A DNA stretch of 64,000 nt. Origin: Patescibacteria group bacterium (GTDB lineage: Bacteria > Patescibacteriota > Patescibacteriia > Buchananbacterales > UBA6539). Each line of letters begins with the position of its first letter. The first letter of the stretch is position 1. Below are positions 2 to 34,954 of this stretch, in pieces. Location of the stretch: positions 66,752 to 130,751 of the forward strand of contig JAQTYZ010000003.1 of the NCBI GenBank assembly GCA_028688055.1, given 5' to 3'. The position numbers and the translations under genes were made by a program. The notes under the pieces are model-generated. The model did no database searches, was not told the origin of the DNA, and was given only the letters and a program-made list of their open reading frames with translations.

Positions 2-448
2 GTGGCCAATAATGTGCCAATCTTAAATCGAAGTATCGACATTGGTGGGCTGACGATTACCAAATCAATTGCTAATAGTTTAAATGTCAGTTTGGCGCGG
101 GCGGAACAATTCAAATATGATATCGGGATGAACCCTGATCGCGTTGGCCAAGGATCAGTGCCAAAAACAATTGAGACAACCTTAACGCCGATCGTTGACG
201 AGTTGCGTTATAGCTTAAATCTTTATAAAAGCCAGGGTCAGAAAAATATTGAAAAAATAATTTTAACCGGTGGCTCGTCATTACTTTTAAATTTACCCGA
301 TTATTTAGCGAATGTTTTAGGCCTGCGAGTTTTTTTGGGTGATCCTTGGGCCCGGGTTATCTACCCCGAGGAATTAAAGCCCGTCTTAGATGAAATTGGT
401 CCTCGATTTTCAGTCGCCGTCGGTTTGGCGATGAGAGATATCGAATAA
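2..448 (+). CDS. pilM: Type IV pilus assembly protein PilM, C-terminal fragment (gene starts upstream of window)
   Basis: Actin-like ATPase C-terminal motif ILTGGSSLLLNLPDYL; lies first in a pilM-N-O-B...C order. Confidence 0.7.
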   Translation: MANNVPILNRSIDIGGLTITKSIANSLNVSLARAEQFKYDIGMNPDRVGQGSVPKTIETTLTPIVDELRYSLNLYKSQGQKNIEKIILTGGSSLLLNLPDYLANVLGLRVFLGDPWARVIYPEELKPVLDEIGPRFSVAVGLAMRDIE

Positions 449-451
449 TTT

Positions 452-1603
452 ATGCCGGAAATTAATTTATTACCAAATGAATTAAGGGAGAAAGAAGAGA
501 AGGAATTGGGTTCAAAAAAGAAATCCAAGAATTTTTCGGTTTCACTTTCCAGCCCCCAAAAAGAAAAAACTGAGGCGCCGCTAACAGCACCAAAATTTTC
601 GTTACTTAGCCGCTTGTTTTACAAACCGACCCCTAAAGCCAGATCTGTTCAAGTGGTGGCTGAAGAAAAAGAAATAAAAGAAGATCAGCCACCGGTCGAA
701 GCTAGGGTAGAAAATGTTATTTTATCGGACAGTCAGCCCCTTGATGAAATGGAGCATGATTTATTCATCAATAACAGTCAAGCGCCAACTGAAGGGGTAA
801 GTGAAAAAGGTGAAGCGGATAAAATAATAAATAAAGAAGATGGCCAGAAAATTGATGAGATCAAGGCGGAGCAAAAAAAGACAATTAAGCCAAGGGCTAA
901 GCTGTTTAACTTTTTTAAACGCGCGCCGAAGGTGGTTGATTCAAAAATAGTGGAGGAGGCTGAGGAAAAAGGTGGAGTGCACCATAATAAATCTTTTAGT
1001 CGAAGGCATGACAATAGTGATTCGGTTCTAGACGTCAATTTGATTCCGGCCGATTTGGCTAAGCGTCCCGATCTGGAACTAAAGTCGAAGGCAATTAAAA
1101 GCGGGGTGGCGATTTTTATCACAATTTTGTTAATTATTAGCACTTATCTAGGCATAACTTGGTATCAACTTAAAATTGCTCAGGAAATTAAAAATATTGA
1201 GGGTCAAATTAAAGATTATGATTCAAAAATAGCGGCTAAAGAGAATGAAAAAACATCGGCCCTCGATTTGCAACAGCGGCTAATTTTGGTTAAGCAGCTT
1301 TTTGACGGGCATGTTTATTGGACTAGGTTTTTCGATTTGTTAGAGAAATACACCAGCTCGGAAGTTTACTATACTAATTTTTCAATGGTGGGACAGGATA
1401 AACTGGTAATTTCGGCCGTGGGTATGGATTATCAGTCGGTTGCCCGACAGCTGGTTGCCTTTGAAAATGCAACTGACTTTGTTAAGTCGGTTAGAATTGA
1501 TTCGGCTTCGGCCAAAATTGATTCGGCCGACGGAAAATTTGCCGGCGTTAATTTCAACATTAATTTGGAATTTGTGCCAGGCGTTTTTTTACAGCCCAAC
1601 TAA
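452..1603 (+). CDS. PilN-like bitopic membrane protein with long low-complexity (K/E-rich) N-terminal region
   Basis: Single TM helix (VAIFITILLIISTYLGITWY) followed by coiled-coil/periplasmic domain; position immediately after pilM. Confidence 0.5.
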   Translation: MPEINLLPNELREKEEKELGSKKKSKNFSVSLSSPQKEKTEAPLTAPKFSLLSRLFYKPTPKARSVQVVAEEKEIKEDQPPVEARVENVILSDSQPLDEMEHDLFINNSQAPTEGVSEKGEADKIINKEDGQKIDEIKAEQKKTIKPRAKLFNFFKRAPKVVDSKIVEEAEEKGGVHHNKSFSRRHDNSDSVLDVNLIPADLAKRPDLELKSKAIKSGVAIFITILLIISTYLGITWYQLKIAQEIKNIEGQIKDYDSKIAAKENEKTSALDLQQRLILVKQLFDGHVYWTRFFDLLEKYTSSEVYYTNFSMVGQDKLVISAVGMDYQSVARQLVAFENATDFVKSVRIDSASAKIDSADGKFAGVNFNINLEFVPGVFLQPN

Positions 1604-1606
1604 TTT

Positions 1607-2218
1607 ATGGCAATAAATAAAAAATCCAAAACAGACAAGCTGAGTGGTAATCTACTAAACTTGGCCTTGGCCAAGTACTACAAAATTGGTACGGCTGCCA
1701 TTATTGTTAGCTTAGTTTTGTCGAGTTTTTTCTTGGTGTTGAAGCCAAAATATGAAGAAGTTGGCGTCGGTGGTCAATATAATTTGGACACTTTAAAAAG
1801 TGAACTGGCCAAGCGCCAGAAATATTTGAGCGACATTGAAGCGTTGACTAACAATTACCGTAATATCGGGCAGGGCGAGGTTGCCAGGTTGCATGAAGTA
1901 TTACCGCCAGCAAAGGATGTCGCTGGACTGTTTGTTCAATTCCAATCGTTGGCCGAAAAGAATAATTTATTATTAGCCGGCGTAAATATTAACGAGGTGC
2001 CGGAGGTAATTAAAATCGGCAGCGGTAAATCAATTAATAAACTAAGTATTACCGTTAATCTGGTTGGTAATAATAATGGTAGTTATTCGGAAATCAAGAA
2101 TTTTTTGGCATCGTTGGAAGATAATATTAGACTCTTTGATGTTAGTGCGGTTTATTTCAGTCCCGGTTCGCCTAATTATTCCGTTAGTATGTTTACTTAT
2201 TACACTAAAGGAAGTTAG
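1607..2218 (+). CDS. PilO-like membrane protein
   Basis: N-terminal TM helix, about 200 aa, position after the PilN-like gene. Confidence 0.45.
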   Translation: MAINKKSKTDKLSGNLLNLALAKYYKIGTAAIIVSLVLSSFFLVLKPKYEEVGVGGQYNLDTLKSELAKRQKYLSDIEALTNNYRNIGQGEVARLHEVLPPAKDVAGLFVQFQSLAEKNNLLLAGVNINEVPEVIKIGSGKSINKLSITVNLVGNNNGSYSEIKNFLASLEDNIRLFDVSAVYFSPGSPNYSVSMFTYYTKGS

Positions 2219-2223
2219 ACCTT

Positions 2224-2535
2224 ATGCTGATACCAAGGAAAATGTCATTAAATCGAAAAACGATAATTATCTTTATGGTTGTGTTAATTTTAGCGGTGGC
2301 CGGGTATCTTTTTTATGTTGGTTTTTTGGCTGGTAAAATTGAAATTTTAAAACCGCTAAAAGTTGAGGTTGAGGTTTTGCAGGTACCAAGTATCAACAGT
2401 GATTTTAATGATGACTTTTTGAATCGGCTGCCTTATACTGGCCTAGTCCAGTCGGCAAAATTGCCTATTACCGCTGGTGTCGTCGGTCGAAATAACCCTT
2501 TTAGTGAAATTCCGTTTTCTTTAGGCTTAAAATAA
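2224..2535 (+). CDS. Small membrane-anchored hypothetical protein (possibly PilP-like)
   Basis: 103 aa, N-terminal TM helix, in the pilus operon. Confidence 0.3.
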   Translation: MLIPRKMSLNRKTIIIFMVVLILAVAGYLFYVGFLAGKIEILKPLKVEVEVLQVPSINSDFNDDFLNRLPYTGLVQSAKLPITAGVVGRNNPFSEIPFSLGLK

Positions 2536-2541
2536 AGTTCA

Positions 2542-4272
2542 ATGTTTAAAGATCAACAACAGCTTCTCAATGCCTTAGTTGAAGCCAAACTTTTAAGTGC
2601 TGATCAGGCCAAGGAACTTGAGGCCAAAGCGACCGAAGTCAATCAGACTCCGGAAGATTTAATATTAGATGGTCATTTGGTTGCGGAAGATCGTTTAACG
2701 GAAATCAAAGGGAAATTACTTGATATCCCGGCGGTTGATTTAAAGGGTCGAGAAATTCTTAAAAAGGTTTTGAATCTAATACCGGGCGAAGTATCAGAAA
2801 ATTATCAAATGGTGCCGTTTGAATTAATTGGCAATGAGCTTCACGTCGGTTTGGTCAACCCGCAGAATTTTAAAGCGATTGAAGCCGTGGAATTCTTAGC
2901 TCAGAAATCCGGTTTTAAAGTTAGATATTTCATTATTTCTCAAGCTAGTTTGCATGAAGCTTTTAAAAACTACCGCATTTTAGGCGATGAAGCGAAAGAA
3001 GCGCTGGCTAATTTAAGTGAAGAAACCGCCGTCACGGGCGCAGCTAAAGAGTCGCTGAAAGAAATGGAAGAAGTAATTAAAAGCGCTCCAGTTTCGAAAA
3101 TGGTTTTGGTAATTATTAGACACGCTATTGACGGTCATGCATCGGACATTCATATTGAACCGACGATGAAAGATACTAAAGTACGCTACCGTATTGATGG
3201 AATTTTAAGAACGTCGTTGGTTTTGCCAAAGTACATCCATTCCGCGATTATTGCCCGAATAAAAGTTTTGGCAAATTTAAAACTTGATGAAACCAGAAAG
3301 CCTCAAGACGGCCGGATTAGATTGACAATTGATAACCGGGAAATTGATTTTCGTGTTTCAACCCTGCCTTTGTTTGAAGGTGAAAAAGTTGTTTTGCGAA
3401 TTTTAGATACCGAATCGCAAGTGCCGGGTCTGGAGCAATTAGGTTTTAATTCTGTTTACATTGAAAAAATTAAAGAATCAATCAAACGGCCGCATGGGTT
3501 AATATTGCTAACCGGGCCAACTGGTTCGGGAAAAACCACCACCTTGTATACGGTTTTGACTATGTTGAATCAAGATGGAATTAATATTGTAACACTTGAG
3601 GATCCGATTGAATATTATATTAGTGGTGTTAACCAATCGCAGATTAATCCGGAAGTTGGGTATACTTTTGCTTCGGGTTTGAGAGCAATTTTACGGCAAG
3701 ACCCCAATGTGGTTATGCTTGGTGAAATTCGAGATAATGAAACGACTGAGCTAGTCATTCACGCCAGCTTGACTGGTCATATGATTTTATCCACTCTTCA
3801 TACCAACGACGCTATCGGTGCGATTCCCCGACTGGTGGATTTAGGAGCGGAACCATTTTTGCTGTCATCGGTTTTAAATCTAGTCATTGCCCAGCGTTTG
3901 GCTCGAAAAATTTGTACCTATTGTAAGAAGGAAAGTTCAGTTCCGGAGACTTTGTTAACTAAAGCCAAAACCTTGCTGGCTGAAATCCCGCCGAAATTTT
4001 TGAGTAAAATTGATCCAGCGAAGTTATCTTTTTACAAGGGCGAGGGTTGTGCTCATTGTGGTAATTTGGGGTATCAAGGCCGAACAGCGGTCGCGGAAGT
4101 GATTAATATTACGACTGAAATTAGAGAAATAATGAATAATGGCGCCAAGGTTGAAGAAATTAGAAAGGCTTTAAAAAAACAGGATTTTATTACGCTGGCG
4201 CAGGACTGTCTTGTTAGGGCGCTTGAGGGCGAAACGACGCTTGATGAAGTTGTCCGGATTTCGACTTTGTAA
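2542..4272 (+). CDS. pilB: Type IV pilus assembly ATPase PilB (GspE family)
   Basis: Walker A GPTGSGKTTT, Walker B VVMLGEIRD, His box ILSTLHTND, tetracysteine CTYC...CAHC, N-terminal GspII domain. Confidence 0.9.
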   Translation: MFKDQQQLLNALVEAKLLSADQAKELEAKATEVNQTPEDLILDGHLVAEDRLTEIKGKLLDIPAVDLKGREILKKVLNLIPGEVSENYQMVPFELIGNELHVGLVNPQNFKAIEAVEFLAQKSGFKVRYFIISQASLHEAFKNYRILGDEAKEALANLSEETAVTGAAKESLKEMEEVIKSAPVSKMVLVIIRHAIDGHASDIHIEPTMKDTKVRYRIDGILRTSLVLPKYIHSAIIARIKVLANLKLDETRKPQDGRIRLTIDNREIDFRVSTLPLFEGEKVVLRILDTESQVPGLEQLGFNSVYIEKIKESIKRPHGLILLTGPTGSGKTTTLYTVLTMLNQDGINIVTLEDPIEYYISGVNQSQINPEVGYTFASGLRAILRQDPNVVMLGEIRDNETTELVIHASLTGHMILSTLHTNDAIGAIPRLVDLGAEPFLLSSVLNLVIAQRLARKICTYCKKESSVPETLLTKAKTLLAEIPPKFLSKIDPAKLSFYKGEGCAHCGNLGYQGRTAVAEVINITTEIREIMNNGAKVEEIRKALKKQDFITLAQDCLVRALEGETTLDEVVRISTL

Positions 4273-4317: not shown

Positions 4318-4695
4318 ATGTCAACGAGCAGAAAAATTCTATTAGTGGAGGATGATGAATTCTTGGCGGAGCTGTATGCGACCAAATTAAACATGGAAGG
4401 TTTTGAAGTTTTTTTGGCCGTTGACGGCGAAAAAGGATTAAAGCTGGCCAAAGAAAAAATGCCTGACTTAGTTTTGTTAGATATTATTTTACCTAAAATG
4501 GACGGTTTTGAAGTTTTAGGAAAAATGAAAATCGATCCGGAAACAAAAAATATCCCGGTCATCTTGTTAACCAATTTGTCGCAAAAAGACGAAGTGAAAA
4601 AGGGCCTTGAGTTAGGAGCAAAGGACTATCTGATTAAGGCTCACTTTATGCCGTCGGAAGTCGTAAAGAAAATTAAGCAAACCTTAGGTGATTAA
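4318..4695 (+). CDS. Stand-alone response-regulator receiver domain (PilH/CheY-like)
   Basis: LLVEDDE..., LLDIILPKMDGFEV receiver motifs; RBS AGGAGA upstream. Confidence 0.85.
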   Translation: MSTSRKILLVEDDEFLAELYATKLNMEGFEVFLAVDGEKGLKLAKEKMPDLVLLDIILPKMDGFEVLGKMKIDPETKNIPVILLTNLSQKDEVKKGLELGAKDYLIKAHFMPSEVVKKIKQTLGD

Positions 4696-4697: not shown

Positions 4698-5771
4698 ATG
4701 GAAGCATCATTAGAATTATTTATTAACAAAATTTTGACCACGGCCGCCAAGCGGCAGGCGTCCAATATTCATTTGACCGTTAATTCATATCCGGCCTTAA
4801 GAGTTAATGATGAGTTGCTTGAGTTGACCGATGAACAAATCGTTACCGATTCATTAGTGAAAAATATGGCTAATGACTGGCTTGATGATTCGCAGAAAAA
4901 AATATTGGAAGAAAAAAAGGAAATTATTGTCACCAAAGAAATGGGAAAAAAATTCAGATTAAAAATGAATTTTTTTTATCAGAAAGGTTTTTTATCAATT
5001 GCTCTTAGATTAATTCCCGGTCGGGTGCCACCATTGATAAATTTGGGTTTACCAAAAGCAGTTTACGGTTTAACTGATAAAAAAGCGGGTTTGATTATTG
5101 TGGCCGGACCGTATGGATCTGGCCGGACGACAACGGTGGCATCAATGGTCGAGGAGATAAATAAGAGTCGTAAAGAAAATATTGTCGTTGTTGAAGATCC
5201 GATTGAGTATTTATTTGTTAATCAAAATAGTTTGATTGAACAAAGGCAAGTTGGTCGAGATACCAATTCATTTTCTGACGCGATTGATAATGCGGAAGAG
5301 TCTGATGTCGACATCATCGCCATTGGTGTTACTGAAGAAAAAGGCGTTGTAGAAAAAGTCTTAGAATTTGCCAACTCCGGACGGTTGGCGATTTTAGCAA
5401 TGGAGACAACATCAGTGGTTCAAACAATTCAAGAGTTTTTAGATAATTTTAGTTCGGATCGGCGCGACCGAGCTCAGGTACTGTTGGCTGAAAATCTGTT
5501 AGCCATCATTGTCCAGCGTTTAGTGCCGCGAGTGGGGGGTGGGTTAGTTTTAGCGGCGGAGGTTTTAATTAGCACCGAAGCGGTTAGTTCGTTAATTACC
5601 GAAGGACGGATAAAACAATTAACAACAATATTACAAACATCGCGCGCCGAAGGAATGATCAGTTTGGATCAATCACTGGCGGAGTTAGTTAGGTCGGGTG
5701 AGGTCATGATTAATCATGCCATCGAATATGCGGCTGATCCACAAAGTTTTCGGGCCATTGCTAAAGATTAA
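4698..5771 (+). CDS. PilT-like retraction ATPase paralogue with degenerate catalytic motifs
   Basis: PilT-family architecture; Walker A is GPYGSGRTTT (Lys to Arg); His box TLHT replaced by AMET; Walker B region DVDIIAIGVTEE is atypical. Confidence 0.75.
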   Translation: MEASLELFINKILTTAAKRQASNIHLTVNSYPALRVNDELLELTDEQIVTDSLVKNMANDWLDDSQKKILEEKKEIIVTKEMGKKFRLKMNFFYQKGFLSIALRLIPGRVPPLINLGLPKAVYGLTDKKAGLIIVAGPYGSGRTTTVASMVEEINKSRKENIVVVEDPIEYLFVNQNSLIEQRQVGRDTNSFSDAIDNAEESDVDIIAIGVTEEKGVVEKVLEFANSGRLAILAMETTSVVQTIQEFLDNFSSDRRDRAQVLLAENLLAIIVQRLVPRVGGGLVLAAEVLISTEAVSSLITEGRIKQLTTILQTSRAEGMISLDQSLAELVRSGEVMINHAIEYAADPQSFRAIAKD

Positions 5772-5779: not shown

Positions 5780-6985
5780 ATGCCTTTTTATCGCTACAAA
5801 GCCAATAATATAGATAATGAGACGGTCGAAGGTATGATCCAGGCCGCTTCTTCAGATGTGGCTGCTGACATTTTGAATGATCAAAATTTGACCATTTTGG
5901 CGTTAAATGAAGAAAAAATTAGTTTTCGCGAGCGAATGTTGCGGGTTTTGAATCGGGTCAAAATTAAAGATTTAGTTATTTTTTCTCGGCAACTATCGGT
6001 CATTGTTTCCGCCACGATTCCCTTGGTTCAAGGCTTAAGAATTTTAGTCACTCAGACCGATAGTCCGGTGCTAAAAACAGTCATTTCCGAAGTGGCTGAC
6101 GACGTCGAGGGTGGCGCTAAATTATCGGCGGCACTCAAAAGGCATTCGGAAATTTTTAGCGATTTTTTTATTAATATTATTAAGTCCGGTGAAACTTCCG
6201 GTAAGCTCGATGACGTTTTGAATTATCTAGCCGATCAGCAAGAAAAGGATTATGATTTAAGTTCAAAGATTAAAGGGGCAATGATTTATCCGATTTTTAT
6301 CGTTAGTGGATTATCAATTGTTGGAACCTTGATGATGATTTTTGTTATTCCCCAACTGACTGCGGTTTTAATTGAAACTGGAGCTCAACTGCCAACTTCG
6401 ACCATCGTTTTGATTGCGGTTAGCAATTTTTTGCAAAAATTTTGGTGGTTGTTAGCCATCGTAATCATTGGTACTTATTTTATACTTCACGCTTTAATTA
6501 AAACCGAAAAAGGTAAATATGCTTGGGACACCATCTTATTGCGTTTGCCAGTTTTTGGTGAATTATTTAGAAAAATTATTTTGGTTCGATTTGCTCGAAG
6601 TTTATATACCTTAACTACCGGCGGCGTGTCATTGACTAAAAGCTTGGAAATTGTTGCCGATGTTGTCGGCAATGCCGTTTTCCATGATTTGATTAGTCAA
6701 ACCGTTAAAGAGGTTGAGGACGGAAATTCAATTGCTACTATTTTTTTGCAGAGTAAAGAGGTACCACCAATGGTTTCGCAGATGTTGAATTTAGGGGAAA
6801 AAACCGGACGGCTCGATGATATCTTGGAAAAATTAGCCCACTTTTATAGCCGCGAAGTTGAAAATTTGGTGGCCAACCTGGTAACGTTGCTTGAGCCAAT
6901 GGTGATGATTCTAATGGGTATCGCGGTCGGTGGATTATTTTCGGCTATTATTTTACCAATGTATAGCCTGGCGTCAAGCCTTTAA
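5780..6985 (+). CDS. pilC: Type IV pilus inner-membrane platform protein PilC (GspF family)
   Basis: 401 aa, two GspF repeats, polytopic membrane protein, follows pilB/pilT. Confidence 0.9.
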   Translation: MPFYRYKANNIDNETVEGMIQAASSDVAADILNDQNLTILALNEEKISFRERMLRVLNRVKIKDLVIFSRQLSVIVSATIPLVQGLRILVTQTDSPVLKTVISEVADDVEGGAKLSAALKRHSEIFSDFFINIIKSGETSGKLDDVLNYLADQQEKDYDLSSKIKGAMIYPIFIVSGLSIVGTLMMIFVIPQLTAVLIETGAQLPTSTIVLIAVSNFLQKFWWLLAIVIIGTYFILHALIKTEKGKYAWDTILLRLPVFGELFRKIILVRFARSLYTLTTGGVSLTKSLEIVADVVGNAVFHDLISQTVKEVEDGNSIATIFLQSKEVPPMVSQMLNLGEKTGRLDDILEKLAHFYSREVENLVANLVTLLEPMVMILMGIAVGGLFSAIILPMYSLASSL

Positions 6986-7003: not shown

Positions 7004-7420
7004 ATGAATAATAAAAAACGACTCGGATTTACGTTAGTTGAATTGTTGGTTGTTATCTCCATTATTGGAATTTTATCCAGTATTTCTACCGCTTCAGTTA
7101 ATATCGCGCGACAACGTGCCAGAGATGCCAGACGTCAAGCCGACGCTTCTCAAATTCAATTAGCTTTGTATTTATATTTTGATGATCATTTGTCTTTTCC
7201 AGAGGCTGATATGTTGCCAGAAAATGCTGTTTCAAATTGGACCAATGTCTTGGTTCCTAATTTGAATGGCACTAATGGTGGCAGAAAGTATATGACTAGG
7301 GTGCCGCTTGATCCACTCAATATTGATCCTCATTTTTACGGCTATAATAGTGATGGTAAAGAGTTTATTGTTACTTATTATTTGGAAAATGGCGGCCCGG
7401 CTGAACTTCACGGTTATTAA
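7004..7420 (+). CDS. Prepilin-type N-terminal cleavage/methylation domain protein (pilin/pseudopilin)
   Basis: N-terminus KRLGFTLVELLVVISIIGIL (G/FTLxE class III signal). Confidence 0.7.
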   Translation: MNNKKRLGFTLVELLVVISIIGILSSISTASVNIARQRARDARRQADASQIQLALYLYFDDHLSFPEADMLPENAVSNWTNVLVPNLNGTNGGRKYMTRVPLDPLNIDPHFYGYNSDGKEFIVTYYLENGGPAELHGY

Positions 7421-7441
7421 TTTGTGCCTTTGTTGAAAAGT

Positions 7442-7450
7442 TGGTATAAT
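7442..7450 (+). promoter_or_regulatory. Extended -10 promoter element TGGTATAAT for major pilin gene 1
   Basis: TGnTATAAT about 70 nt upstream of ATG; same element and same downstream 5' UTR (ACCAAACGAAAGGGGGTGAGACAATG) recur at 12786. Confidence 0.55.
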
Positions 7451-7517
7451 TAATTAGTTGTTGATAACTAAAAATTTTGGTTTATTATAAACCAACCAAA
7501 CGAAAGGGGGTGAGACA

Positions 7518-7949
7518 ATGAGAAAGAAAGGTTTTACACTTATCGAACTGTTAGTGGTAATTGCCATCATCGGTCTATTATCGACCTTGGCAGTTGTCGC
7601 TTTGAATTCCGCCCGATTGAAGGCGAGAGATGCTAAGCGCGTAGCTGATATTAAACAGGTTCAGACAGCATTGGAGCTTTATTTTAATGATCAACAGAAT
7701 TATCCAGGTACCACTGGTACTTTAGGCACAGCTTCAATGGTTTGTCTTGGTACAGCCGGTTTTGGTACCTCAGGCTGTGGCGGCGCTTATATGGGATTAG
7801 TCCCTTCGAACCCAACTCCAAACGGAGCGGTTTATGTATATTCAGCGGATGGTACTTCAGGAACATACTCAATCACCTTCAGTCTGGAAGGAACGACTGG
7901 TGGTTTAGGTTCAGGTGCTCACACTGCTTCACAAGACGGGTTGGAATAA
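7518..7949 (+). CDS. Major type IV pilin, copy 1
   Basis: [21 protein letters not shown] prepilin leader; Gly/Thr/Ser-rich variable centre; conserved C-terminus [19 protein letters not shown]; RBS GGGGGTGA. Confidence 0.8.
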
Positions 7950-7974
7950 TTTATACAATACACCTATTAACAAT

Positions 7975-7999
7975 AAAACCCCAGCCTGGGGTTTTATTG
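7975..7999 (+). terminator. Rho-independent terminator
   Basis: AAAACCCCAGCCTGGGGTTTT hairpin plus T-run. Confidence 0.6.
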
Positions 8000-8035
8000 T
8001 TGTGTTAGACGTCATTTCAGGTTAAAATTACTATC

Positions 8036-10303
8036 ATGACACCTAAGATCCAAAAAATATTTTTGCCCGTTATATTCTTTTTTTTATTGCTGGTTTTTTT
8101 TGCCCCCTACCTGAATGGGAGCAATATTTTATATGAGGGTGACTATACGGGCAGTGATTTAACTGAGTTGAATTTACCTTTTAGATACTGGGCGGCCGAA
8201 CAAATCAAACATGGAGATTTGCCGCTTTGGAATGATCAAATATCAGCTGGTTTTCCGCAGCTCGCTGAGGGCCAAACGGGAGTTTTTTATCCCTTTAATT
8301 TAATTTTTTTTATTTTATTGCCAATCGGCTTCGCGGTGCTGGCAACTTATTTTTTAAATTTTCTCTTGGCTGGAATTTTTACCTTTATTTATTGTCGAAG
8401 CTTGAATATCAGTCAGGTCGGAAGTTGGCTGGCGGCGACGGCCTTTAGTTTTAGCGGTTGGTTTGTCTTTAGACTAAAACATCTTAATTTGATTAATGCG
8501 GCGATTTGGCTGCCATTAATTTTTTATTTAATTGAAAAATTAATTGTTTCAAAACGTAAAGATTTGTTACTCGTCTTGTTGTCAGGTGTTTATACGATTC
8601 AGTTCTTTGCCGGTCATCCTCAAATCAGTTACATCTCAGTGCTAGCTGGGCTGGCCTATTATTTGATTAGATTATTAGGAAACGACGAATTTAAAAAATC
8701 TGGACGCTGGCTAAAAATTTATAAAATTATATTTCCCTGGATGGTAATTGGTTTTTTGACGCTGGGAATGACGGCCATCCAACTTTTACCAACTTACCAA
8801 TTATCCAAATTATCAGCCAGAGGTAGCTGGTCTGACTTTAATAATTCTGTTGGCACTTTAGTCTTTCAGCCTGTAGAATTTTTAACCGCTATCTATCCTT
8901 ATATATTTGGTAATCCAGCTAACGGCAGTTATCAAGGTTTTGATTTGGGATTCAAATCTGGTTTCTGGGAGGACAGCGTTTACTTCGGTCTACTGCCATT
9001 ATTTTTTTCATTTATTGCTTTAATATTTGTTTGGCGCAAAGAAAAAATTATTAGACAGCTGTCGTTTTTTTTGGTTTTTTGTTTATTTTTTATCCTAGCC
9101 GGATCTAATCCTTGGTTTAAATGGGTCTGGAGTGTCTTACCCTCTTACCAAGTATTTCGTTTTCATCAGCGATTCTTGTTACCATTTATCTTGATAATGT
9201 CGGTTTTGTCAGCCCTGGGATTTGATTATTGTGCCAAAAAGATTGCCAACGTGGGGAAAACCGGCAAGGCGGCCCCACGTAATCTCAATAGCGGTTGGTC
9301 GATTATTGTTATTTTGATTGTTAGTATTGAGTTGCTTTTTATGTCGCTGCAGTTTATTGGCACGATGCCAACTACCTATTTAACCGCCGAGCCTGAAAGC
9401 GTTGAATGGTTAAAGGCTGATCAGGATCAGTTTCGAGTTGCTAGTTTATATTATCAGCTGTCATGGAATTTTGTTTTCTCAAATTCTAATGGTTGGCTTA
9501 GCACGCCAGATTTATACCTAGAAAATCGTGAGTTGGTACAACCTAATTTAAATTTATTTTATGGTCTTAGTACTTATAACGATCGTGGTTGGAATGAGGG
9601 TGGGCAGCTCGACCGTCGCTTGGCAGCACTCTTAACGGTGATTGATAAAAATATCACTCTGGATGTCACCTCCCACGCCGTAATAATTAGTCCTAATGTT
9701 TTGAAAGTTTTAGGTTTGCAAAATGTCAAGTATTTATTGTCATATTATCCGGTCCGTAGCAATCACTTAGCGGAAGTTAAATCGATTAATCAATTATTTT
9801 TGCCAACTTTGCATATTTATCAAAATCCCTATTTTTTAAACAGGGCCTTTATGGTTTTCCAGTCCAAGCCGGTTAATGCTGACGCTGACGAAATAGCAAG
9901 TTTGTTTGCTGATGATTTTGATCCGTCAAAAGTGGTAACGAGCGCGGCTGAGCTTGGTTTAAAACCAGCCCTTAAAGCTCAGTCCCAAGTCGAAGTTATT
10001 AGTCATCAGGCTAATAAATCAGCTTATCGTGTTAAAACTGATAGTGATGGTTTGCTGTTTATTAGCCAGCTGTATTATCCGGGCTGGATTGCCAAAGTTG
10101 ACGGTAAAAAGGTTGACCTGGAGCGTGTTAATGGGGCATACACTGGCCTAATGATTCCGAGTGGCGAACATCGAGTTGAGCTGAAATATGACCCCAAGTC
10201 TTTCGAGCTTGGGTTAACAATTTCTTTGCTAACACTAATATTGATTATTATTTATTTTGCGATGAAACTTTTGGTTTCAATGCGATCAGTTTTTAAATTA
10301 TGA
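8036..10303 (+). CDS. YfhO-family polytopic membrane protein (GT-C fold glycosyltransferase-like)
   Basis: 755 aa, many TM helices; C-terminal YYPGWIAKVDGKKVDLERVNGAYTGLMIPSGEHRVELKYDP is typical of the YfhO family. Confidence 0.65.
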   Translation: MTPKIQKIFLPVIFFFLLLVFFAPYLNGSNILYEGDYTGSDLTELNLPFRYWAAEQIKHGDLPLWNDQISAGFPQLAEGQTGVFYPFNLIFFILLPIGFAVLATYFLNFLLAGIFTFIYCRSLNISQVGSWLAATAFSFSGWFVFRLKHLNLINAAIWLPLIFYLIEKLIVSKRKDLLLVLLSGVYTIQFFAGHPQISYISVLAGLAYYLIRLLGNDEFKKSGRWLKIYKIIFPWMVIGFLTLGMTAIQLLPTYQLSKLSARGSWSDFNNSVGTLVFQPVEFLTAIYPYIFGNPANGSYQGFDLGFKSGFWEDSVYFGLLPLFFSFIALIFVWRKEKIIRQLSFFLVFCLFFILAGSNPWFKWVWSVLPSYQVFRFHQRFLLPFILIMSVLSALGFDYCAKKIANVGKTGKAAPRNLNSGWSIIVILIVSIELLFMSLQFIGTMPTTYLTAEPESVEWLKADQDQFRVASLYYQLSWNFVFSNSNGWLSTPDLYLENRELVQPNLNLFYGLSTYNDRGWNEGGQLDRRLAALLTVIDKNITLDVTSHAVIISPNVLKVLGLQNVKYLLSYYPVRSNHLAEVKSINQLFLPTLHIYQNPYFLNRAFMVFQSKPVNADADEIASLFADDFDPSKVVTSAAELGLKPALKAQSQVEVISHQANKSAYRVKTDSDGLLFISQLYYPGWIAKVDGKKVDLERVNGAYTGLMIPSGEHRVELKYDPKSFELGLTISLLTLILIIIYFAMKLLVSMRSVFKL

Positions 10304-10944
10304 TTAACAAAGAAGCTTTAGATAAAATTCACCGAAATGTTCCGCCTGATTATTATCAGTCTGGGATCAAGCATAATTATTTACAACGATATTGGCATCA
10401 CCGACGTTTTGCAGTAATTAGTCGTGAATTAAAAAAATTAAATTTAAGCGCTCCCTTGTTGGATTTGGGTTGCCACGGCGGTGACTTAACCAACGTCTTG
10501 AGTCAAGCCGCGCAGGTTGATATTTATGGTATTGATATCTCGGAAAAATCAATTGAATTTGCTAAAAGGCGTTTCCCAAACATCAATTTTAGTGTTCAGG
10601 ACTTTCCCGGTCAAAAGCAATTTACTGATAATTATTTTCAAGCCATCACCGCCTTTGATGTGATGGAGCATATCCCTGATACCCCTAAAGTCCTTGATGA
10701 AATTAAAAGATTGCTAAAACCCGGTGGCTATTTTATTATGGCTATTCCCAATGAAAATTTACTTTTTAAAGTAGTCTGGTTGTTCTGGACGAGCTTTAAA
10801 GGTCAAGTTTGGGAGGGCGTTCATGTCCACGATTTTAAGATGGAAGGCTTTGCGGAATTTGAAAAGCAGGGTTTTGAAAAAATTGTTGAGCTAAAAATTA
10901 TTTTTGGGATGTGGTGGTTTTTAATTTTTCGCGTTAAAAAATAA
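10300..10944 (+). CDS. Class I SAM-dependent methyltransferase
   Basis: LDLGCHGGDLT (motif I), LKPGGYFIM; overlaps upstream stop by 4 nt. Confidence 0.75.
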   Translation: MINKEALDKIHRNVPPDYYQSGIKHNYLQRYWHHRRFAVISRELKKLNLSAPLLDLGCHGGDLTNVLSQAAQVDIYGIDISEKSIEFAKRRFPNINFSVQDFPGQKQFTDNYFQAITAFDVMEHIPDTPKVLDEIKRLLKPGGYFIMAIPNENLLFKVVWLFWTSFKGQVWEGVHVHDFKMEGFAEFEKQGFEKIVELKIIFGMWWFLIFRVKK

Positions 10945-10947
10945 ATA

Positions 10948-12765
10948 ATGAAAACACTTAAAGCTAATAAAAATTTTTTGTTATTCGGTTTGGTTTTTTT
11001 TGTTGCAATGTCGGTCTATATTATGACCTTAGCGCCGTCCATTACCATGGAAGACAGCGGTGAATTAGTGACGGCGGCTTATACACTCGGGATTCCTCAT
11101 CCGTCCGGTTATCCATTGTTTGTCCTCTTAGGCAAGCTATTTACTTTTTTACCATTGGGTACTATTGCTTGGCGAGTTAATTTAATGTCGGCTTGTTTTG
11201 CATCGCTCGCAGTAGCTTTGCTTTATCTAATCCTTGAAAAAACGACAAAAAATAAAATTATTTCCGTTGGTAGCGCATTAATGTTAGCTTTTAGCCCGGT
11301 TTACTGGTCACAGAGCGTAATCACGGAGGTGTATGCTTTAAATATTTTTTTTGTGGCGGTGTTATTGTACCTGTGTTTGTTGTATTGGGAAACGAAGAAT
11401 AAGAAATTGTTGCTCTGGTTTTCTTTTTGGTACGGCCTGAGCTTAACAAATCACTCGATGAATATTTTGTTAGCACCGGCTTTTGCCGCTTTTTTTATAT
11501 ATGCTGATTGGAAAATTCTAAAAAAATTTAAGTTAATAGTGGCCATGCTGGGTCTTTTTGTACTCGGGTTGTCCGTTTATTTTTATATCCCGTGGCGGGC
11601 GTTTCAGTTGCCAATTTTTAATTGGGGTCCGATTACAACTTGGAGCGATGTTTGGAAACATCTTAGTCGAGCGCAGTACAATGATTTTTCACCCCTGAGT
11701 AATGAATATCGCAAAATTGGTTTGGTCATCTCTTTTTTTTATGAGATCTACCAACAATTTCATTTGCCGACGTTGATTTTAGCTTTTGGTGGCGCTATAT
11801 ATTGGTGGTCAAAAAATCGTCCGATCGCGCTTTTAACGTCGGGAATATTTTTATTAAACAGTTTGGGGATTATTTTTTTAAGAAAATTCGGCTGGGGGAT
11901 AAGTGTCGATTTTACTTATCGAGTATATTATTTACCGGCCCTGATGATTGTTATATTTTGGTTTGCCTCTATTGTGGCTTTTGGTTTAGATAAAATAAAA
12001 TTTTACTTTAAAGATCGTCCGAACATTATTAAAACCCTGACAGTTGTCATTTATATCTTAATCATTTCTTTACCAGCTAGTTTTGTCCTGGCCAATTATC
12101 AGCGTGAAGATATGAGCAGCTTTTGGCTTAATTATGATTATACTAGAAATCTGCTCAATAGTTTGGAGCCAAATAGCATTTATTATTTTGCCTACGATGG
12201 TAGTTTGCAGGGCGATACGGAGTTATTTAGTCTGATCTATTTTAAAGATGTTGAAGGATTAAGACCAGACGTCAGCATCGTGACGGAGCAGCAATTTTTT
12301 TATCTTGATTTATATTTAGCGTTGCCGGCTGATTATTATCAATTAAGTTTTGAAGATCGGCGAAAAGTATTGATGAGTCTACTGACTAAGATAAAAAATC
12401 GTCCCCTCTATGCTAATTACGCCTTAACCTCAACTAACAATAACGAGCACCTTTATAGTTTATCCAACGGTTATGCCTATAAAGTCTTTTCCAATATTGC
12501 TGAGGCGAGAAAATCGAAAGTTGGTTTATTTTTAGCGCCAATCAGAGGGCTCGATGAAATGGCCGAGCAGGGTGATAATACCGTTTTAGGATTTATATCG
12601 CATTACTATTATAATTTGAGCGCGTACTACTTGACTTCCGGATCGACCGCTCAATACCAAAAATATTTAATGAAAGCTTTTAATCTTGATAACGCGCCAT
12701 TTAATCATGAGTATCGACGGTTTCTTGATTATCGCGCCGAGTGGCTTCGTAATGATGGTGGGTAA
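10948..12765 (+). CDS. DUF2723 (TMEM260-like) polytopic membrane protein, putative GT-C glycosyltransferase
   Basis: N-terminal MEDSGELVTAAYTLGIPHPSGYPLF signature of DUF2723; about 12 TM helices. Confidence 0.6.
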   Translation: MKTLKANKNFLLFGLVFFVAMSVYIMTLAPSITMEDSGELVTAAYTLGIPHPSGYPLFVLLGKLFTFLPLGTIAWRVNLMSACFASLAVALLYLILEKTTKNKIISVGSALMLAFSPVYWSQSVITEVYALNIFFVAVLLYLCLLYWETKNKKLLLWFSFWYGLSLTNHSMNILLAPAFAAFFIYADWKILKKFKLIVAMLGLFVLGLSVYFYIPWRAFQLPIFNWGPITTWSDVWKHLSRAQYNDFSPLSNEYRKIGLVISFFYEIYQQFHLPTLILAFGGAIYWWSKNRPIALLTSGIFLLNSLGIIFLRKFGWGISVDFTYRVYYLPALMIVIFWFASIVAFGLDKIKFYFKDRPNIIKTLTVVIYILIISLPASFVLANYQREDMSSFWLNYDYTRNLLNSLEPNSIYYFAYDGSLQGDTELFSLIYFKDVEGLRPDVSIVTEQQFFYLDLYLALPADYYQLSFEDRRKVLMSLLTKIKNRPLYANYALTSTNNNEHLYSLSNGYAYKVFSNIAEARKSKVGLFLAPIRGLDEMAEQGDNTVLGFISHYYYNLSAYYLTSGSTAQYQKYLMKAFNLDNAPFNHEYRRFLDYRAEWLRNDGG

Positions 12766-12785
12766 TTGTTAGGTGATTAAGTTTG

Positions 12786-12794
12786 TGGTATAAT
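12786..12794 (+). promoter_or_regulatory. Extended -10 promoter TGGTATAAT for major pilin gene 2
   Basis: Same promoter and 5' UTR block as at 7442. Confidence 0.55.
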
Positions 12795-12842
12795 AAATTT
12801 ATAATTTTTTTGGATTACAACCAAACGAAAGGGGGTGAGACA

Positions 12843-13307
12843 ATGAGAAAGAAAGGTTTTACACTTATCGAACTGTTAGTGGTAATTGCCATCATCGGTC
12901 TATTATCGACCTTGGCAGTTGTCGCTTTGAATTCCGCCCGATTGAAGGCGAGAGATGCTAAGCGCGTAGCTGATATTAAACAGGTTCAGACAGCGTTGGA
13001 GCTTTATTTTAATGACAATAACAGTTATCCGATTATGGGTGGGGCGCCGATTGTGTTAGGGTCAGGTGCCACCTGTTTAGGTGACGGTGGTTTTGGCACT
13101 AGTTGTTCGGCGCCAGTCTATATGGGTTTATTGCCAACCAACCCAACGCCAAATGGTGCTGATTATTCTTATACTTCTGTTTCAGAGGGTGGCGGTGATT
13201 GTGGCTCGGAGCCTTGCTCAACATATGCCATTACCTTTACACTTGAAGGAACTACGGGTGGCTTAGGTTCAGGCGCTCACACGGCCTCACAGGATGGTTT
13301 ACAGTAA
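12843..13307 (+). CDS. Major type IV pilin, copy 2 (true start at internal ATG 12843, not the 12783 ORF start)
   Basis: Identical 5' UTR/RBS and first ~55 codons as pilin 1; divergent middle; conserved C-terminus [24 protein letters not shown]. Confidence 0.8.
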   Translation: MRKKGFTLIELLVVIAIIGLLSTLAVVALNSARLKARDAKRVADIKQVQTALELYFNDNNSYPIMGGAPIVLGSGATCLGDGGFGTSCSAPVYMGLLPTNPTPNGADYSYTSVSEGGGDCGSEPCSTYAITFTLEGTTGGLGSGAHTASQDGLQ

Positions 13308-13327
13308 AAATCAGTTCGGAATTTTAG

Positions 13328-13357
13328 ATCCCGCCCAATAATTTGGGCGGGATTTTT
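13328..13357 (+). terminator. Rho-independent terminator
   Basis: ATCCCGCCCAATAATTTGGGCGGGATTTTT. Confidence 0.6.
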
Positions 13358-13407
13358 AGACTCCAAAAATGTTTGCCTATTTTGCTTAATCAAGGTAAAA
13401 TTAAGGT

Positions 13408-14157
13408 ATGTTTGAACTATTTATTTTTATTTTTGGCCTGGTAATTGGTAGTTTTTTGAACGTTGTTATTTTGCGGTTAGAAAAAGCGGAATCATTTATG
13501 AGTGGTCGTTCGCGCTGTCCAAACTGTAAACATAATTTAGCTTGGTATGACAATATTCCGCTATTGAGTTTTATTTTCTTGCGCGCTAATTGTCGTTATT
13601 GCCACACAAAAATTTCTTGGCAATACCCAATCGTTGAGTTAGCAACGGCTGTGTTGTTTAGTCTATTATATTATAAATTTGATTTTACTGACCATTTTTT
13701 TTCTTTTTTACTCTTAACCTGTTTTTTGATAATTATCTTTGTCTACGATCTAAAATATTATTTAATTCCAGACGTTGTCTCAATACCAGCAATTATTGTT
13801 GCTCTGCTTCTGAATATTTTTTTACACCTTAGTTTGACCAGCGTCATCCTGGGCGCCATTGTCGGCGGGTTGTTTTTTGCTCTTCAATATTGGGTTTCCC
13901 GGGGAGTTTGGGTTGGTGATGGCGATATTCGTTTAGGTATTTTAATGGGTTTAATTTTGGGCTTTAAAATTTTGTTGGTGGCGCTTTTTTTGGCGTACTT
14001 GGTTGGTGCGATGGTGGGAGTAAGTCTGTTGCTAGTCAAAAAAAAGCAGCTGTCATCAGCGCTTCCCTTTGGACCGTTTTTAACCTTAGCGACTTTTGTG
14101 GCGATGATTTGGGGCGAAAAAATTTTATTTTGGTACTTAAATTTAGTTTACTACTAA
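13408..14157 (+). CDS. pilD: Prepilin peptidase PilD (A24 family)
   Basis: LIGSFLNVVILRL, CPNC...CRYC zinc motif, polytopic, DGDIRLG Asp box. Confidence 0.85.
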   Translation: MFELFIFIFGLVIGSFLNVVILRLEKAESFMSGRSRCPNCKHNLAWYDNIPLLSFIFLRANCRYCHTKISWQYPIVELATAVLFSLLYYKFDFTDHFFSFLLLTCFLIIIFVYDLKYYLIPDVVSIPAIIVALLLNIFLHLSLTSVILGAIVGGLFFALQYWVSRGVWVGDGDIRLGILMGLILGFKILLVALFLAYLVGAMVGVSLLLVKKKQLSSALPFGPFLTLATFVAMIWGEKILFWYLNLVYY

Positions 14158-14158
14158 T

Positions 14159-16030: not shown

Positions 16031-16032
16031 CT

Positions 16033-16977: not shown

Positions 16978-19011
<2,034 letters not shown>

Positions 19012-19021
19012 GAAAAGAGGT

Positions 19022-19140
19022 GGCGGCAACCCATGGATAGACGTCTGGAGATCTACCACTGTCGGGTTGCCGCCAAGTGCGTCGCAACTGGTTTTAGCTG
19101 GGGGACTAGCACCAGCTGCGGAGACGGGGCAAAGGGCAAT
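19022..19140 (+). ncRNA. Candidate structured RNA / long GC-rich hairpin in the ligA-gatC intergenic region
   Basis: GGCGGCAACCC...GGGTTGCCGCC 11-bp stem around a 29-nt loop with AGACGTCT and AGATCT palindromes; further GC-rich pairing downstream; no T-run, so not a simple terminator. Confidence 0.3.
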
Positions 19141-19519: not shown

Positions 19520-19522
19520 CCT

Positions 19523-34950: not shown

Positions 34951-34954
34951 TATT

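What the first reader, a model, noticed from the sequence alone, without database searches (positions are those of the whole stretch)
4698..5771. PilT-like ATPase with Walker A Lys-to-Arg and a lost His box: probably non-catalytic
The adjacent PilB has canonical GPTGSGKTT / GEIRD / TLHTND motifs. The PilT-like gene instead has GPYGSGRTT, lacks the GE.RD Walker B glutamate context and has AMET in place of TLHT. The window contains no other retraction ATPase. Either retraction is absent or performed elsewhere, or this protein acts as a regulatory or scaffolding PilT/PilU-like paralogue.
Basis: seen in the sequence. Interest (0 to 1): 0.5.

Follow-up and report, generated by a model that had tools for sequence, protein, structure and literature searches.

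The report
Motor-dead PilT conserved across ABY1 Patescibacteria
The gene is a well-conserved copy of the type IV pilus retraction motor PilT that has lost the residues needed to burn ATP, and the same loss is shared by a whole class-level branch of ultrasmall (CPR) bacteria, which may therefore run their pili without a conventional retraction motor.

Summary
ORF 4698-5771(+) encodes a full-length, PilT-fold protein (TM 0.92 to PilT4:ATP). Its Walker A is GPYGSGRTT (Lys->Arg), the catalytic Glu after Walker B is Val, and both His-box histidines are gone (Arg, Glu). No other GK[ST] exists in the protein.

It is neither a one-off nor a pseudogene. The protein belongs to a large clade of about 190 sampled sequences, at 33-91% identity, with no canonical member. 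The clade comes from Patescibacteria named Buchanan-, Falkow-, Kerfeld-, Komeili-, Kuenen- and Jacksonbacteria. In it the gamma-phosphate His is never present. The P-loop glycines, the Asp-box glutamates and one Arg finger are about 98% conserved.

The gene sits where canonical PilT sits in other CPR lineages: pilB-(receiver)-pilT-pilC-pilins-pilD-ligA-gatA. It is under strong purifying selection, yet it has gone from the most conserved to the least conserved of PilB/PilT/PilC.

Best reading: a hydrolysis-dead, probably still nucleotide-binding, PilT orthologue acting as a non-motor component of the pilus machine. Two things remain untested: ATPase activity, and whether a canonical PilT exists elsewhere in this genome. 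Published counts for closed ABY1 genomes list only one pilT. I found no prior description.

The parts
4698..5771 (+). PilT* : full-length PilT-fold protein (357 aa) with degenerate catalytic motifs
   Evidence: ORF. PF00437 74 bits. TIGR01420 313.9 bits, just under the cutoff of 319.1. PDB PilT 2ewv E=1.9e-69. AF2 pLDDT 92.1 and TM 0.92 to PilT4:ATP 6ojx.
5106..5132 (+). Walker A / P-loop GPYGSGRTT (Lys->Arg143)
   Evidence: Alignment to 2ewv. Translation check. Arg at this position in 144 and Lys in 39 of 186 clade members.
5184..5210 (+). Asp box VVVEDPIEY, intact (E166, E170)
   Evidence: E166 and E170 conserved in 184/186 clade members.
5304..5339 (+). Atypical Walker B region DVDIIAIGVTEE: catalytic Glu replaced by Val211, Arg213 lost
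   Evidence: Glu kept in only 53/186 clade members and Arg213 in none.
5376..5411 (+). Former His box SGRLAILAMETT (His->Arg229, His->Glu236)
   Evidence: His236 in 0/186 and His229 in 4/186 clade members. Arg229 in 134/186.
5580..5606 (+). AIRNLIRE-equivalent helix, AVSSLITEG here (family consensus AVRSLIxEG)
4956..4958 (+). Arg87, arginine-finger position, retained
   Evidence: Aligned to the Arg of RFRAN in 2ewv. R in 183/186 clade members.
4318..4695 (+). Receiver-only response regulator (125 aa). Its stop codon lies 2 nt before the pilT* ATG, and an AGGTGA Shine-Dalgarno lies inside its 3' end.
   Evidence: PF00072 85.7 bits. Sequence read. Same position in 46 of 57 degenerate loci and 10 of 29 canonical loci.
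2542..4272 (+). PilB extension ATPase, canonical motifs, MshEN N-terminal domain
   Evidence: PF00437 417 bits, PF05157 38.6 bits. Motifs.
5780..6985 (+). PilC platform protein
   Evidence: PF00482 197 bits.
2..2535 (+). pilM (3' part, 2-448), pilN-like (452-1603), pilO-like (1607-2218), small conserved ORF (2224-2535)
   Evidence: ORFs. PilN weak Pfam hit. Same four genes upstream of pilB in L001, L007-L013 and others.
7004..16977 (+). Rest of the pilus locus: pilins (7004-7420, 7518-7949, 12783-13307, 15311-16030), YfhO-like, SAM methyltransferase, TMEM260/PMT_2-like glycosyltransferase, PilD prepilin peptidase (13408-14157), unknown ORFs
   Evidence: Pfam.
16981..20989 (+). ligA (16981-19011) and gatA amidase (19523-20989): synteny anchors shared with canonical-PilT loci
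   Evidence: Pfam. Same order in L003/L005 (canonical) and L008 (degenerate).

Best explanation
The gene encodes PilT*, the positional orthologue of the type IVa pilus retraction ATPase PilT. In one deep branch of Patescibacteria it has been converted into a catalytically dead, or at least strongly attenuated, protein. The lineages are named Buchanan-, Falkow-, Kerfeld-, Komeili-, Kuenen- and Jacksonbacteria, which from memory of GTDB is class ABY1 / Patescibacteriia.

Shown: it keeps the complete two-domain PilT fold, its place between pilB and pilC, and strong purifying selection. It keeps the parts that bind nucleotide and sense it across the subunit interface: P-loop glycines, Ser/Thr, the Asp-box glutamates that hold Mg2+, and one arginine finger. 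It has lost the parts that do chemistry: the Walker-A Lys (now Arg), the water-activating Glu (now Val) and the His-box His that contacts the gamma-phosphate.

Inferred: PilT* still forms a PilT-like hexamer that docks on the PilC/PilM platform and probably still binds ATP or ADP, but does not cycle. It would then act as a non-motor component that competes with or gates the canonical PilB motor. It could work as a clutch or brake, or as a factor that displaces PilB and lets the fibre depolymerise slowly without power. The co-translated receiver-only response regulator may control it.
For: Motif substitutions are placed by a full-length alignment to solved PilT and by the structure model. The positions are those reported as completely or highly conserved in all PilT-like ATPases. 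Their roles are Mg2+ coordination by the ASP-box Glu, water activation by the catalytic Glu, and gamma-phosphate contact by the HIS-box His (PMC5424180; essentiality in PMC5065972).

The top 120 homologues (41-91% id) share the same changes. Together with the top 150 representatives of 50% clusters, they give an NJ clade of 191 sequences with no K/E/H/H member. Clade statistics: His236 0/186, His229 4/186, Arg143 144/186, Glu211 53/186, against R87 183/186 and E166/E170 184/186.

Synteny is conserved at 35-67% identity. The window and L008 share pilT-pilC-pilin-pilD-pilins-ligA-gatC-gatA with the canonical loci L003/L005.

Purifying selection against the 91% orthologue: pN 0.055 against saturated pS 0.77, like PilC at 0.049.

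Rate reversal: in canonical CPR loci PilT is more conserved than PilB and PilC in 120/120 pairs. In degenerate loci PilT* is less conserved than PilB in 100% and than PilC in 98% of 861 pairs.

One member (Kerfeldbacteria, L081) has no P-loop at all (GTANAEQST) in a gap-free alignment, yet keeps its length and position. Closed ABY1 genomes are reported with one pilT, one pilB and one pilC (PMC11809585 Table S5). Retraction without a PilT motor has precedent (gonococcus, bioRxiv 10.1101/497933; Sulfolobus, PMC11178785).
Against: No biochemical test was possible, so loss of hydrolysis is inferred from motifs only.

Part of the clade keeps the Walker-A Lys and the catalytic Glu and lacks only the two histidines (Falkowbacteria-type, about 100 of 119 sequences). 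A P. aeruginosa PilT H229A mutant is reported as partly functional (PMC12607626). The clade may therefore be heterogeneous in activity.

In Vibrio cholerae an ATPase-dead PilT does nothing unless PilU is present (PMC9815625; PMC12607626). A dead PilT acting alone therefore has no experimental precedent.

I could not enumerate all T2SSE genes in any genome that carries PilT*. I could not retrieve the single PilT of the closed ABY1 genomes to confirm that it is the degenerate type.

The NJ tree is a simple distance tree without support values.
Confidence: 0.6

Rival explanations
1. PilT* is still a working retraction ATPase with a non-standard active site. Arg143 and Arg229 would replace Lys and His as phosphate ligands, and another acidic residue (Asp-box Glu166/170 or Glu213/214) would activate water.
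For: The replacements are not random. Arg replaces Lys in 77% of the clade and Arg or Lys replaces the first His in 83%. The nucleotide-binding shell, the Asp box and one Arg finger are about 98% conserved. Purifying selection is strong. Some subclades keep Lys and the catalytic Glu.
Against: No conserved substitute for the catalytic Glu exists: positions 211 and 213 are highly variable in the clade. The gamma-phosphate His is absent in 186/186. Walker-A Lys->Arg is the classical bind-but-do-not-hydrolyse change in P-loop NTPases (general knowledge, e.g. RecA K72R and Rad51 K191R, from memory). The protein lost its status as the most conserved pilus component, which fits release from ATPase-cycle constraints. 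One member has no P-loop at all.
Confidence: 0.15
2. A canonical PilT- or PilU-type motor is encoded elsewhere in the genome. PilT* would then be an adaptor that couples that motor to the machine, as ATPase-dead PilT couples PilU in Vibrio cholerae.
For: ATPase-dead PilT supports PilU-driven retraction in V. cholerae and P. aeruginosa PA14 (PMC9815625; PMC12607626). Only 64 kb of this genome is visible. Canonical PilT does exist in other Patescibacteria. An orphan pilT-like + pilM pair exists in some relatives (L031, L017, L019, L014).
Against: PilT* occupies the orthologous slot of canonical PilT instead of sitting beside one. There is no second T2SSE gene within +/-10 kb in any of about 57 degenerate loci. 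No genome gave two hits in the GTDB scan, although that scan is of limited sensitivity. Named lineages with PilT* and with canonical PilT do not overlap. Contig lengths do not overlap between the two hit lists. Closed ABY1 genomes are reported with exactly one pilT hit.
Confidence: 0.12
3. The gene is a decaying remnant with no function.
For: Catalytic motifs are lost and the protein evolves faster than PilB and PilC.
Against: The reading frame is full length in hundreds of lineages down to 33% identity. pN/pS is about 0.07. Many non-catalytic positions are near-invariant. The fold prediction is of high confidence. The gene is tightly coupled translationally to its neighbours.
Confidence: 0.02

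Closest known systems
PilT, the type IVa pilus retraction ATPase (e.g. Aquifex aeolicus 2ewv, Geobacter metallireducens PilT4 6ojx, P. aeruginosa 3jvv)
   Same: Same length and same two-domain fold (TM 0.92). Same genomic slot between pilB and pilC. Asp box, one Arg finger and an AIRNLIRE-like helix are retained at family level.
   Different: Walker-A Lys, the catalytic Glu and both His-box histidines are replaced. The score falls just under the TIGR01420 cutoff. The protein evolves faster than PilB and PilC instead of slower.
Engineered ATPase-dead PilT (K136A / E204A) that bridges PilU to the machine in Vibrio cholerae and P. aeruginosa
   Same: A PilT that cannot hydrolyse ATP but still has a role through binding the machine (PMC9815625, PMC12607626).
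   Different: Those are laboratory mutants that need PilU. Here the dead state is natural and ancient, and no PilU-type partner is seen nearby.
Canonical PilT of other Patescibacteria (Paceibacteria P0170 family; Saccharibacteria TM7x PilT)
   Same: Same phylum and the same locus architecture: pilT-pilC-pilin-pilD-pilins-ligA-gatC-gatA, and pilM-N-O-x-pilB-pilT-pilC in TM7x.
   Different: Those keep K/E/H/H. TM7x PilT is reported with conserved Walker boxes (PMC11623550). They are extremely conserved, at 81-97% identity over 120 clusters.
Motor-independent or single-motor pilus retraction (gonococcal pilT-independent retraction; Sulfolobus Aap pili; Caulobacter CpaF)
   Same: Pili that retract without a dedicated active PilT (CpaF as cited in PMC9815625).
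   Different: Those systems simply lack PilT. Here a PilT-shaped protein is retained under selection.

Membership tests
T2SSE secretion/pilus ATPase superfamily (PF00437) | Pfam HMM score above the gathering threshold | tested here: met
   74 bits vs cutoff 24.9, residues 3-278.
PilT/PilU family type IVa pilus ATPase (TIGR01420) | NCBIfam HMM score at or above the curated cutoff | tested here: not met
   313.9 bits vs cutoff 319.1, full-length match 9-349. A near miss. NCBI names relatives variously PilT/PilU, 'ATPase T2SS/T4P/T4SS family', 'TadA' or hypothetical.
PilT retraction ATPase | Two-domain PilT fold (N-terminal PAS-like domain plus RecA-like ATPase domain) | tested here: met
   AF2 pLDDT 92.1. 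Foldseek TM 0.92 and rmsd 2.0 A to 6ojx_A. PilT hits rank above PilU, DotB and PilB.
PilT retraction ATPase | Walker A GxxGxGK[ST] with the invariant Lys | tested here: not met
   GPYGSGRTT. No other GK[ST] in the protein.
PilT retraction ATPase | Asp box with Mg2+-coordinating Glu | tested here: met
   VVVEDPIEY.
PilT retraction ATPase | Catalytic Glu immediately after the atypical Walker B (GEMRD) | tested here: not met
   IGVTEE: Val at the Glu position.
PilT retraction ATPase | His box with two histidines, the second contacting the gamma-phosphate | tested here: not met
   SGRLAILAMETT: Arg and Glu at the two His positions. Role of the His from PMC5424180.
PilT retraction ATPase | AIRNLIRE motif, a PilT signature (recalled from memory: Aukema et al. 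2005) | tested here: inconclusive
   The window has AVSSLITE. The family consensus is AVRSLIxE / AVKSLIRE, close to the motif.
PilT retraction ATPase | Encoded in a type IVa pilus locus next to pilB and pilC | tested here: met
   pilM-N-O-x-pilB-RR-pilT*-pilC-pilins-pilD.
PilT retraction ATPase | ATP hydrolysis, hexamer formation and power for pilus retraction | not testable with these tools
   Needs biochemistry and genetics.
PilU accessory retraction ATPase | Canonical Walker A/B and His box, usually encoded next to pilT, dependent on PilT | tested here: not met
   Motifs are degenerate. No adjacent pilT. PDB PilU hit E=5.2e-47, weaker than PilT at 1.9e-69.
Degenerate 'PilT*' clade of Patescibacteria (defined here) | PilT-length protein in the pilB/pilC slot. 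No His at either His-box position. No Arg at the GEMRD Arg position. Asp box and Arg87 kept. | tested here: met
   The window protein nests inside the 186/191-member clade. Closest relatives are 91%, 72% and 71% identical, with the same motifs.

The most novel reading that the evidence does not exclude
A whole class-level lineage of Patescibacteria (ABY1/Patescibacteriia) has no pilus retraction motor at all. Its only PilT-type protein would be a nucleotide-gated, possibly response-regulator-controlled pseudo-ATPase that switches the PilB/PilC machine between powered extension and unpowered disassembly. That would be a mode of type IV pilus control not described in any model organism.
Probability: 0.25. 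Interest if true: 0.75.

Novelty: new variant of a known kind. Interest (0 to 1): 0.55.

Why it matters
Type IV pili are among the few systems enriched across CPR/Patescibacteria. They are thought to mediate host attachment, twitching and DNA uptake in these obligate episymbionts (PMC6744442, PMC12206443). Metabolic reconstructions of ABY1 genomes, including the nomenclatural type of the phylum, draw this gene as 'PilT (retraction ATPase)' (PMC11809585).

If that protein cannot hydrolyse ATP, those models need revision for a large part of the phylum. DNA uptake and attachment there would rely on non-motor or PilB-driven dynamics.

The clade also offers a natural series of progressively degenerate PilTs:
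- His box lost only.
- Lys->Arg in addition.
- Catalytic Glu lost in addition.
- P-loop destroyed.

That series could be used to dissect which functions of PilT need binding and which need hydrolysis.

Tried and rejected
1. Looked for a second T2SSE gene in the window by tblastn. None found.

2. Tried to name the organisms of the canonical representatives nearest the clade with the listing of cluster members. No names were returned.

3. Hoped the TM7x paper's supplement would give per-phylum PilT identities. It holds only genome metadata.

4. The GTDB scan with the broad alignment A1 failed for lack of a conserved stretch. The absence of double hits per genome is therefore only weak evidence.

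5. Spent the last homologue search on a Falkowbacteria PilT* to catch the PilT of the closed P. danicum genomes (contigs of 938,851 or 917,454 bp). It was not among the top 120.

6. dN/dS against the 91% orthologue: synonymous sites are saturated (pS 0.73-0.77), so only pN and pN/pS are usable.

7. Tested whether the receiver-only response regulator is specific to degenerate loci. It is not: 46/57 degenerate loci have it, but so do 10/29 canonical ones. I dropped the idea that the RR and the degeneration arose together.

8. Considered PilU identity. Rejected on PDB ranking, motifs and context.

9. Looked for a histidine kinase partner. None among the 49 window ORFs scanned with Pfam.

10. Literature searches for a degenerate or pseudo-ATPase PilT found nothing.

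Full report
**1. The observation**

ORF 4698-5771 (+) is real. It starts with ATG two bases after the stop of the upstream gene, behind an AGGTGA Shine-Dalgarno, and encodes 357 aa. It matches PF00437 (74 bits). It also matches the PilT/PilU family model TIGR01420 over its whole length with 313.9 bits, just below the curated cutoff of 319.1.

The best solved relative is Aquifex aeolicus PilT (2ewv, E=1.9e-69, residues 3-352 on 9-359), followed by other PilTs, then PilU, DotB and PilB. That alignment places the motifs as follows:

| Motif | Window protein | Aquifex PilT |
|---|---|---|
| Walker A | GPYGSGRTT | GPTGSGKST |
| Asp box | VVVEDPIEY | IITIEDPIEY |
| Walker B region | DVDIIAIGVTEE | DPDVIFVGEMRD |
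| His box | SGRLAILAMETT | TGHLVFGTLHTN |

So Lys->Arg143, catalytic Glu->Val211, His->Arg229 and His->Glu236. No other GK[ST] exists in the protein.

An AlphaFold2 model built on 115 homologues has mean pLDDT 92.1. It superposes on G. metallireducens PilT4:ATP with TM 0.92 and rmsd 2.0 A. The P-loop lies between strand 131-136 and helix 143-157.

The neighbouring PilB is fully canonical, and no third T2SSE-type gene exists in the window. The identical protein occurs in an independent public assembly.

**2. It is a clade, not an accident**

The 120 best homologues among 5.8 billion proteins are 41-91% identical and almost all 354-365 aa. Where named, they come from Candidatus Buchananbacteria, Falkowbacteria, Kerfeldbacteria or 'Patescibacteria group'. 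Nearly all share GSGR in the P-loop and SGRLxxxxM[DEN]T in place of the His box.

I then searched all 1.84 billion 50%-cluster representatives; 4032 had E<=1e-30. I classified the top 150 together with the first 120 at the four key positions.
- 74 domains are K/E/H/H, that is canonical.
- In a neighbour-joining tree the query sits in a clade of 191 sequences that contains no canonical member. This is a simple distance tree without support values.

Within the inner 186-member clade:

| Position | Role | Count in 186 |
|---|---|---|
| 236 | gamma-phosphate His | His 0 |
| 229 | first His-box His | His 4, Arg 134, Lys 20 |
| 143 | Walker-A Lys | Arg 144, Lys 39 |
| 211 | catalytic Glu | Glu 53 |
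| 213 | Arg of GEMRD | Arg 0 |
| 87 | Arg finger | Arg 183 |
| 166 / 170 | Asp-box glutamates | Glu 184 each |

G137, S141, G142 and T146 are near-invariant.

McCallum et al. report that the Walker motifs, the catalytic Glu, two Arg fingers and an ASP-box Glu are completely conserved, and a HIS-box His highly conserved, in all PilT-like ATPases. They also show that the ASP-box Glu holds Mg2+ and the HIS-box His contacts the gamma-phosphate (PMC5424180).

The clade has therefore kept the nucleotide-binding and nucleotide-sensing shell and lost the chemistry. Degeneration is graded:
- Falkowbacteria-type members mostly keep Lys and Glu and lack only the histidines (KESN or KECN in 90 of 119).
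- The window's Buchananbacteria-type subclade has lost all four.
- A Kerfeldbacteria member has no P-loop at all (VIGTANAEQSTT in a gap-free alignment).

**3. Orthologue, not extra paralogue**

The window locus reads: pilM, pilN, pilO, a small ORF, pilB, a receiver-only response regulator, pilT*, pilC, pilins, YfhO-like, a methyltransferase, a TMEM260/PMT_2-like glycosyltransferase, a pilin, pilD, further pilin-like ORFs, then ligA and gatA.

The same order around pilT* holds in loci whose PilT* is only 35-67% identical (L001, L007, L008 and about 50 GTDB species representatives).

Canonical PilT does exist in Patescibacteria. The P0170 family from Paceibacterota/Minisyncoccia is K/E/H/H and 81-97% identical across 120 clusters. 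It sits in pilT-pilC-pilin-pilD-pilins-ligA-gatC-gatA (L003, L005). That is the same string that follows pilT* in L008 and in the window.

In Saccharibacteria TM7x the order is pilM1-N1-O1-x-pilB1-pilT-pilC1-pilA1-pilD (PMC12206443 supplementary table). Its PilT is reported to have conserved Walker boxes (PMC11623550). PilT* therefore occupies the slot of canonical PilT.

Named lineages carrying PilT* are Buchanan-, Falkow-, Komeili-, Kuenen-, Jackson- and Kerfeldbacteria. Those carrying canonical PilT are Saccharibacteria, Yanofsky-, Yonath- and Adlerbacteria and Paceibacterota. The two sets do not overlap in my samples. From my memory of GTDB the first set is class ABY1. For Falkowbacteria / order BM507 this is stated in PMC11809585.

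**4. Selection and rate**

Against the 91% orthologue (L089), synonymous sites are saturated (pS 0.77). pN is 0.055, similar to PilC (0.049) and PilB (0.038), so the gene is under strong purifying selection.

Its relative rate has flipped:

| Loci | Pairs | Mean identity PilT / PilB / PilC | Ranking |
|---|---|---|---|
| 16 canonical CPR | 120 | 0.55 / 0.45 / 0.39 | PilT above PilB and PilC in 120/120 |
| 42 degenerate | 861 | 0.39 / 0.51 / 0.49 | PilT* below PilB in 100%, below PilC in 98% |

This is what release from the constraints of an ATPase cycle, with retention of another function, would look like.

**5. Is there another retraction motor?**

This is the main gap.
- No second T2SSE gene lies within 10 kb of any degenerate locus, and no genome gave two hits in the GTDB scan.
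- Indirect support comes from the description of Patescibacterium danicum (class ABY1, two closed genomes of 939 and 917 kb). BlastKOALA hit counts there are pilT 1, pilB 1, pilC 1, pilM 1 and comEC 2 (PMC11809585 Table S5). I could not retrieve that PilT to confirm it is the degenerate type.
- Some relatives carry an orphan pilT-like + pilM pair in a housekeeping neighbourhood: der, pth, mfd, dprA, topA (L031 and others). It also lacks the histidines.

**6. How it most likely works**

Shown: fold, position, conservation pattern, selection.

Inferred: PilT* still assembles like PilT and docks on the PilC/PilM platform. In most members it probably still binds nucleotide. Arg for Lys is the classical bind-but-do-not-hydrolyse change (general knowledge), and the Mg2+ ligand and Arg finger are kept. 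It does not turn over ATP.

It would then act by occupancy, displacing or gating PilB. Pili would stop extending and could depolymerise without power, as seen at low force in gonococcal pilT mutants and in Sulfolobus.

The receiver-only regulator has DD, D55, T and K in the expected places and is translationally coupled to pilT*. It is a plausible controller, but it is also present in a third of canonical CPR loci, so it is not part of the degeneration event.

Against this model, ATPase-dead PilT alone is inert in V. cholerae (PMC9815625), and PilT H229A keeps partial function in P. aeruginosa (PMC12607626). Members lacking only the histidines may therefore still be slow motors.

The rivals, with my estimates, are a non-canonical but active ATPase (0.15), an adaptor for a motor encoded elsewhere (0.12) and a decaying remnant (0.02).

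**7. Novelty and verdict**

Full-text searches for a degenerate or catalytically inactive PilT returned nothing relevant. ABY1 genome papers label the gene simply as the retraction ATPase.

I rate it a new variant of a known kind: a natural, ancient, lineage-wide pseudo-ATPase form of PilT. Interest is 0.55. A pilus specialist would find a class-wide loss of the retraction chemistry notable, and it makes testable the question of what PilT does besides hydrolysing ATP. The key claims still rest on motif inference and on an incomplete genome-wide census.

Noticed in passing
window 4318-4695 (+); also L001, L007-L013 and others: A receiver-only (CheY-like) response regulator sits between pilB and pilT/pilT*, translationally coupled to pilT*. 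It is present in 46 of 57 degenerate and 10 of 29 canonical loci sampled. It is absent from TM7x and from the Paceibacteria P0170-type loci. No histidine kinase was found among the 49 window ORFs scanned.
   Followed up: partly
L031 10001-12139; also L014, L017, L019: An orphan pilT-like gene is followed by a pilM-like gene in a housekeeping neighbourhood (der, pth, mfd, dprA, topA), away from pilB and pilC. The PilT-like protein keeps Lys and Glu/Asp but has SGRLVIxNxEAD instead of the His box.
   Followed up: partly
L081 9956-11059 (Kerfeldbacteria JACPGJ010000008.1): The PilT* copy in the pilB-pilC slot has a destroyed P-loop (GTANAEQST for GxxGSGKST) in a gap-free alignment, yet is full length. 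There is no response regulator in this locus.
   Followed up: yes
proteins P0122-P0130, P0138, P0153, P0192: Tandem PilT-PilT fusion proteins of 700-1024 aa. In at least one (P0138) the first half has a degenerate P-loop (GNRGSGRSC) and the second half is canonical. This would be a covalent dead-plus-live PilT pair. Organisms unknown.
   Followed up: no
window 8036-12765: A YfhO-like membrane protein, a SAM methyltransferase and a TMEM260/PMT_2-like glycosyltransferase are embedded between pilin genes. The same trio occurs in L001. Possibly pilin glycosylation.
   Followed up: no
window about 32400-52100: Probable mobile or defence island: serine recombinase (32461-33750, -), EcoRI-type methylase, GmrSD_N+HNH nuclease, Dam-type methylase, reverse-transcriptase fragment (41564-42226, with locally raised GC of 0.475), terminase-like gene (45349-46845, -), two N6/N4 methylases of which one is ParB-fused, LexA/S24-like repressor, SMODS/CD-NTase (51041-52051).
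   Followed up: no
L011, L012, L014, L016, L022, L024, L028-L030, L036, L038 and others: Many GTDB representative MAGs titled 'uncultured Gammaproteobacteria bacterium' (TPA_asm, binchicken/SRP co-assemblies) carry typical Patescibacteria pilus loci. The record titles look wrong.
   Followed up: no
L003/L005 10001-11071; P0170 family; canonical CPR loci: Canonical Patescibacteria PilTs have an unusual but Lys-containing P-loop, GP[ATV]G[HQ]GK[ST]T (His or Gln where Ser is usual). They are remarkably conserved: 81-97% identity across 120 90%-clusters.
   Followed up: no
window 2542-4272: PilB carries an N-terminal MshEN domain (PF05157, E=1e-9), the fold that binds c-di-GMP in MshE. No diguanylate cyclase was noticed among the ORFs scanned.
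   Followed up: no
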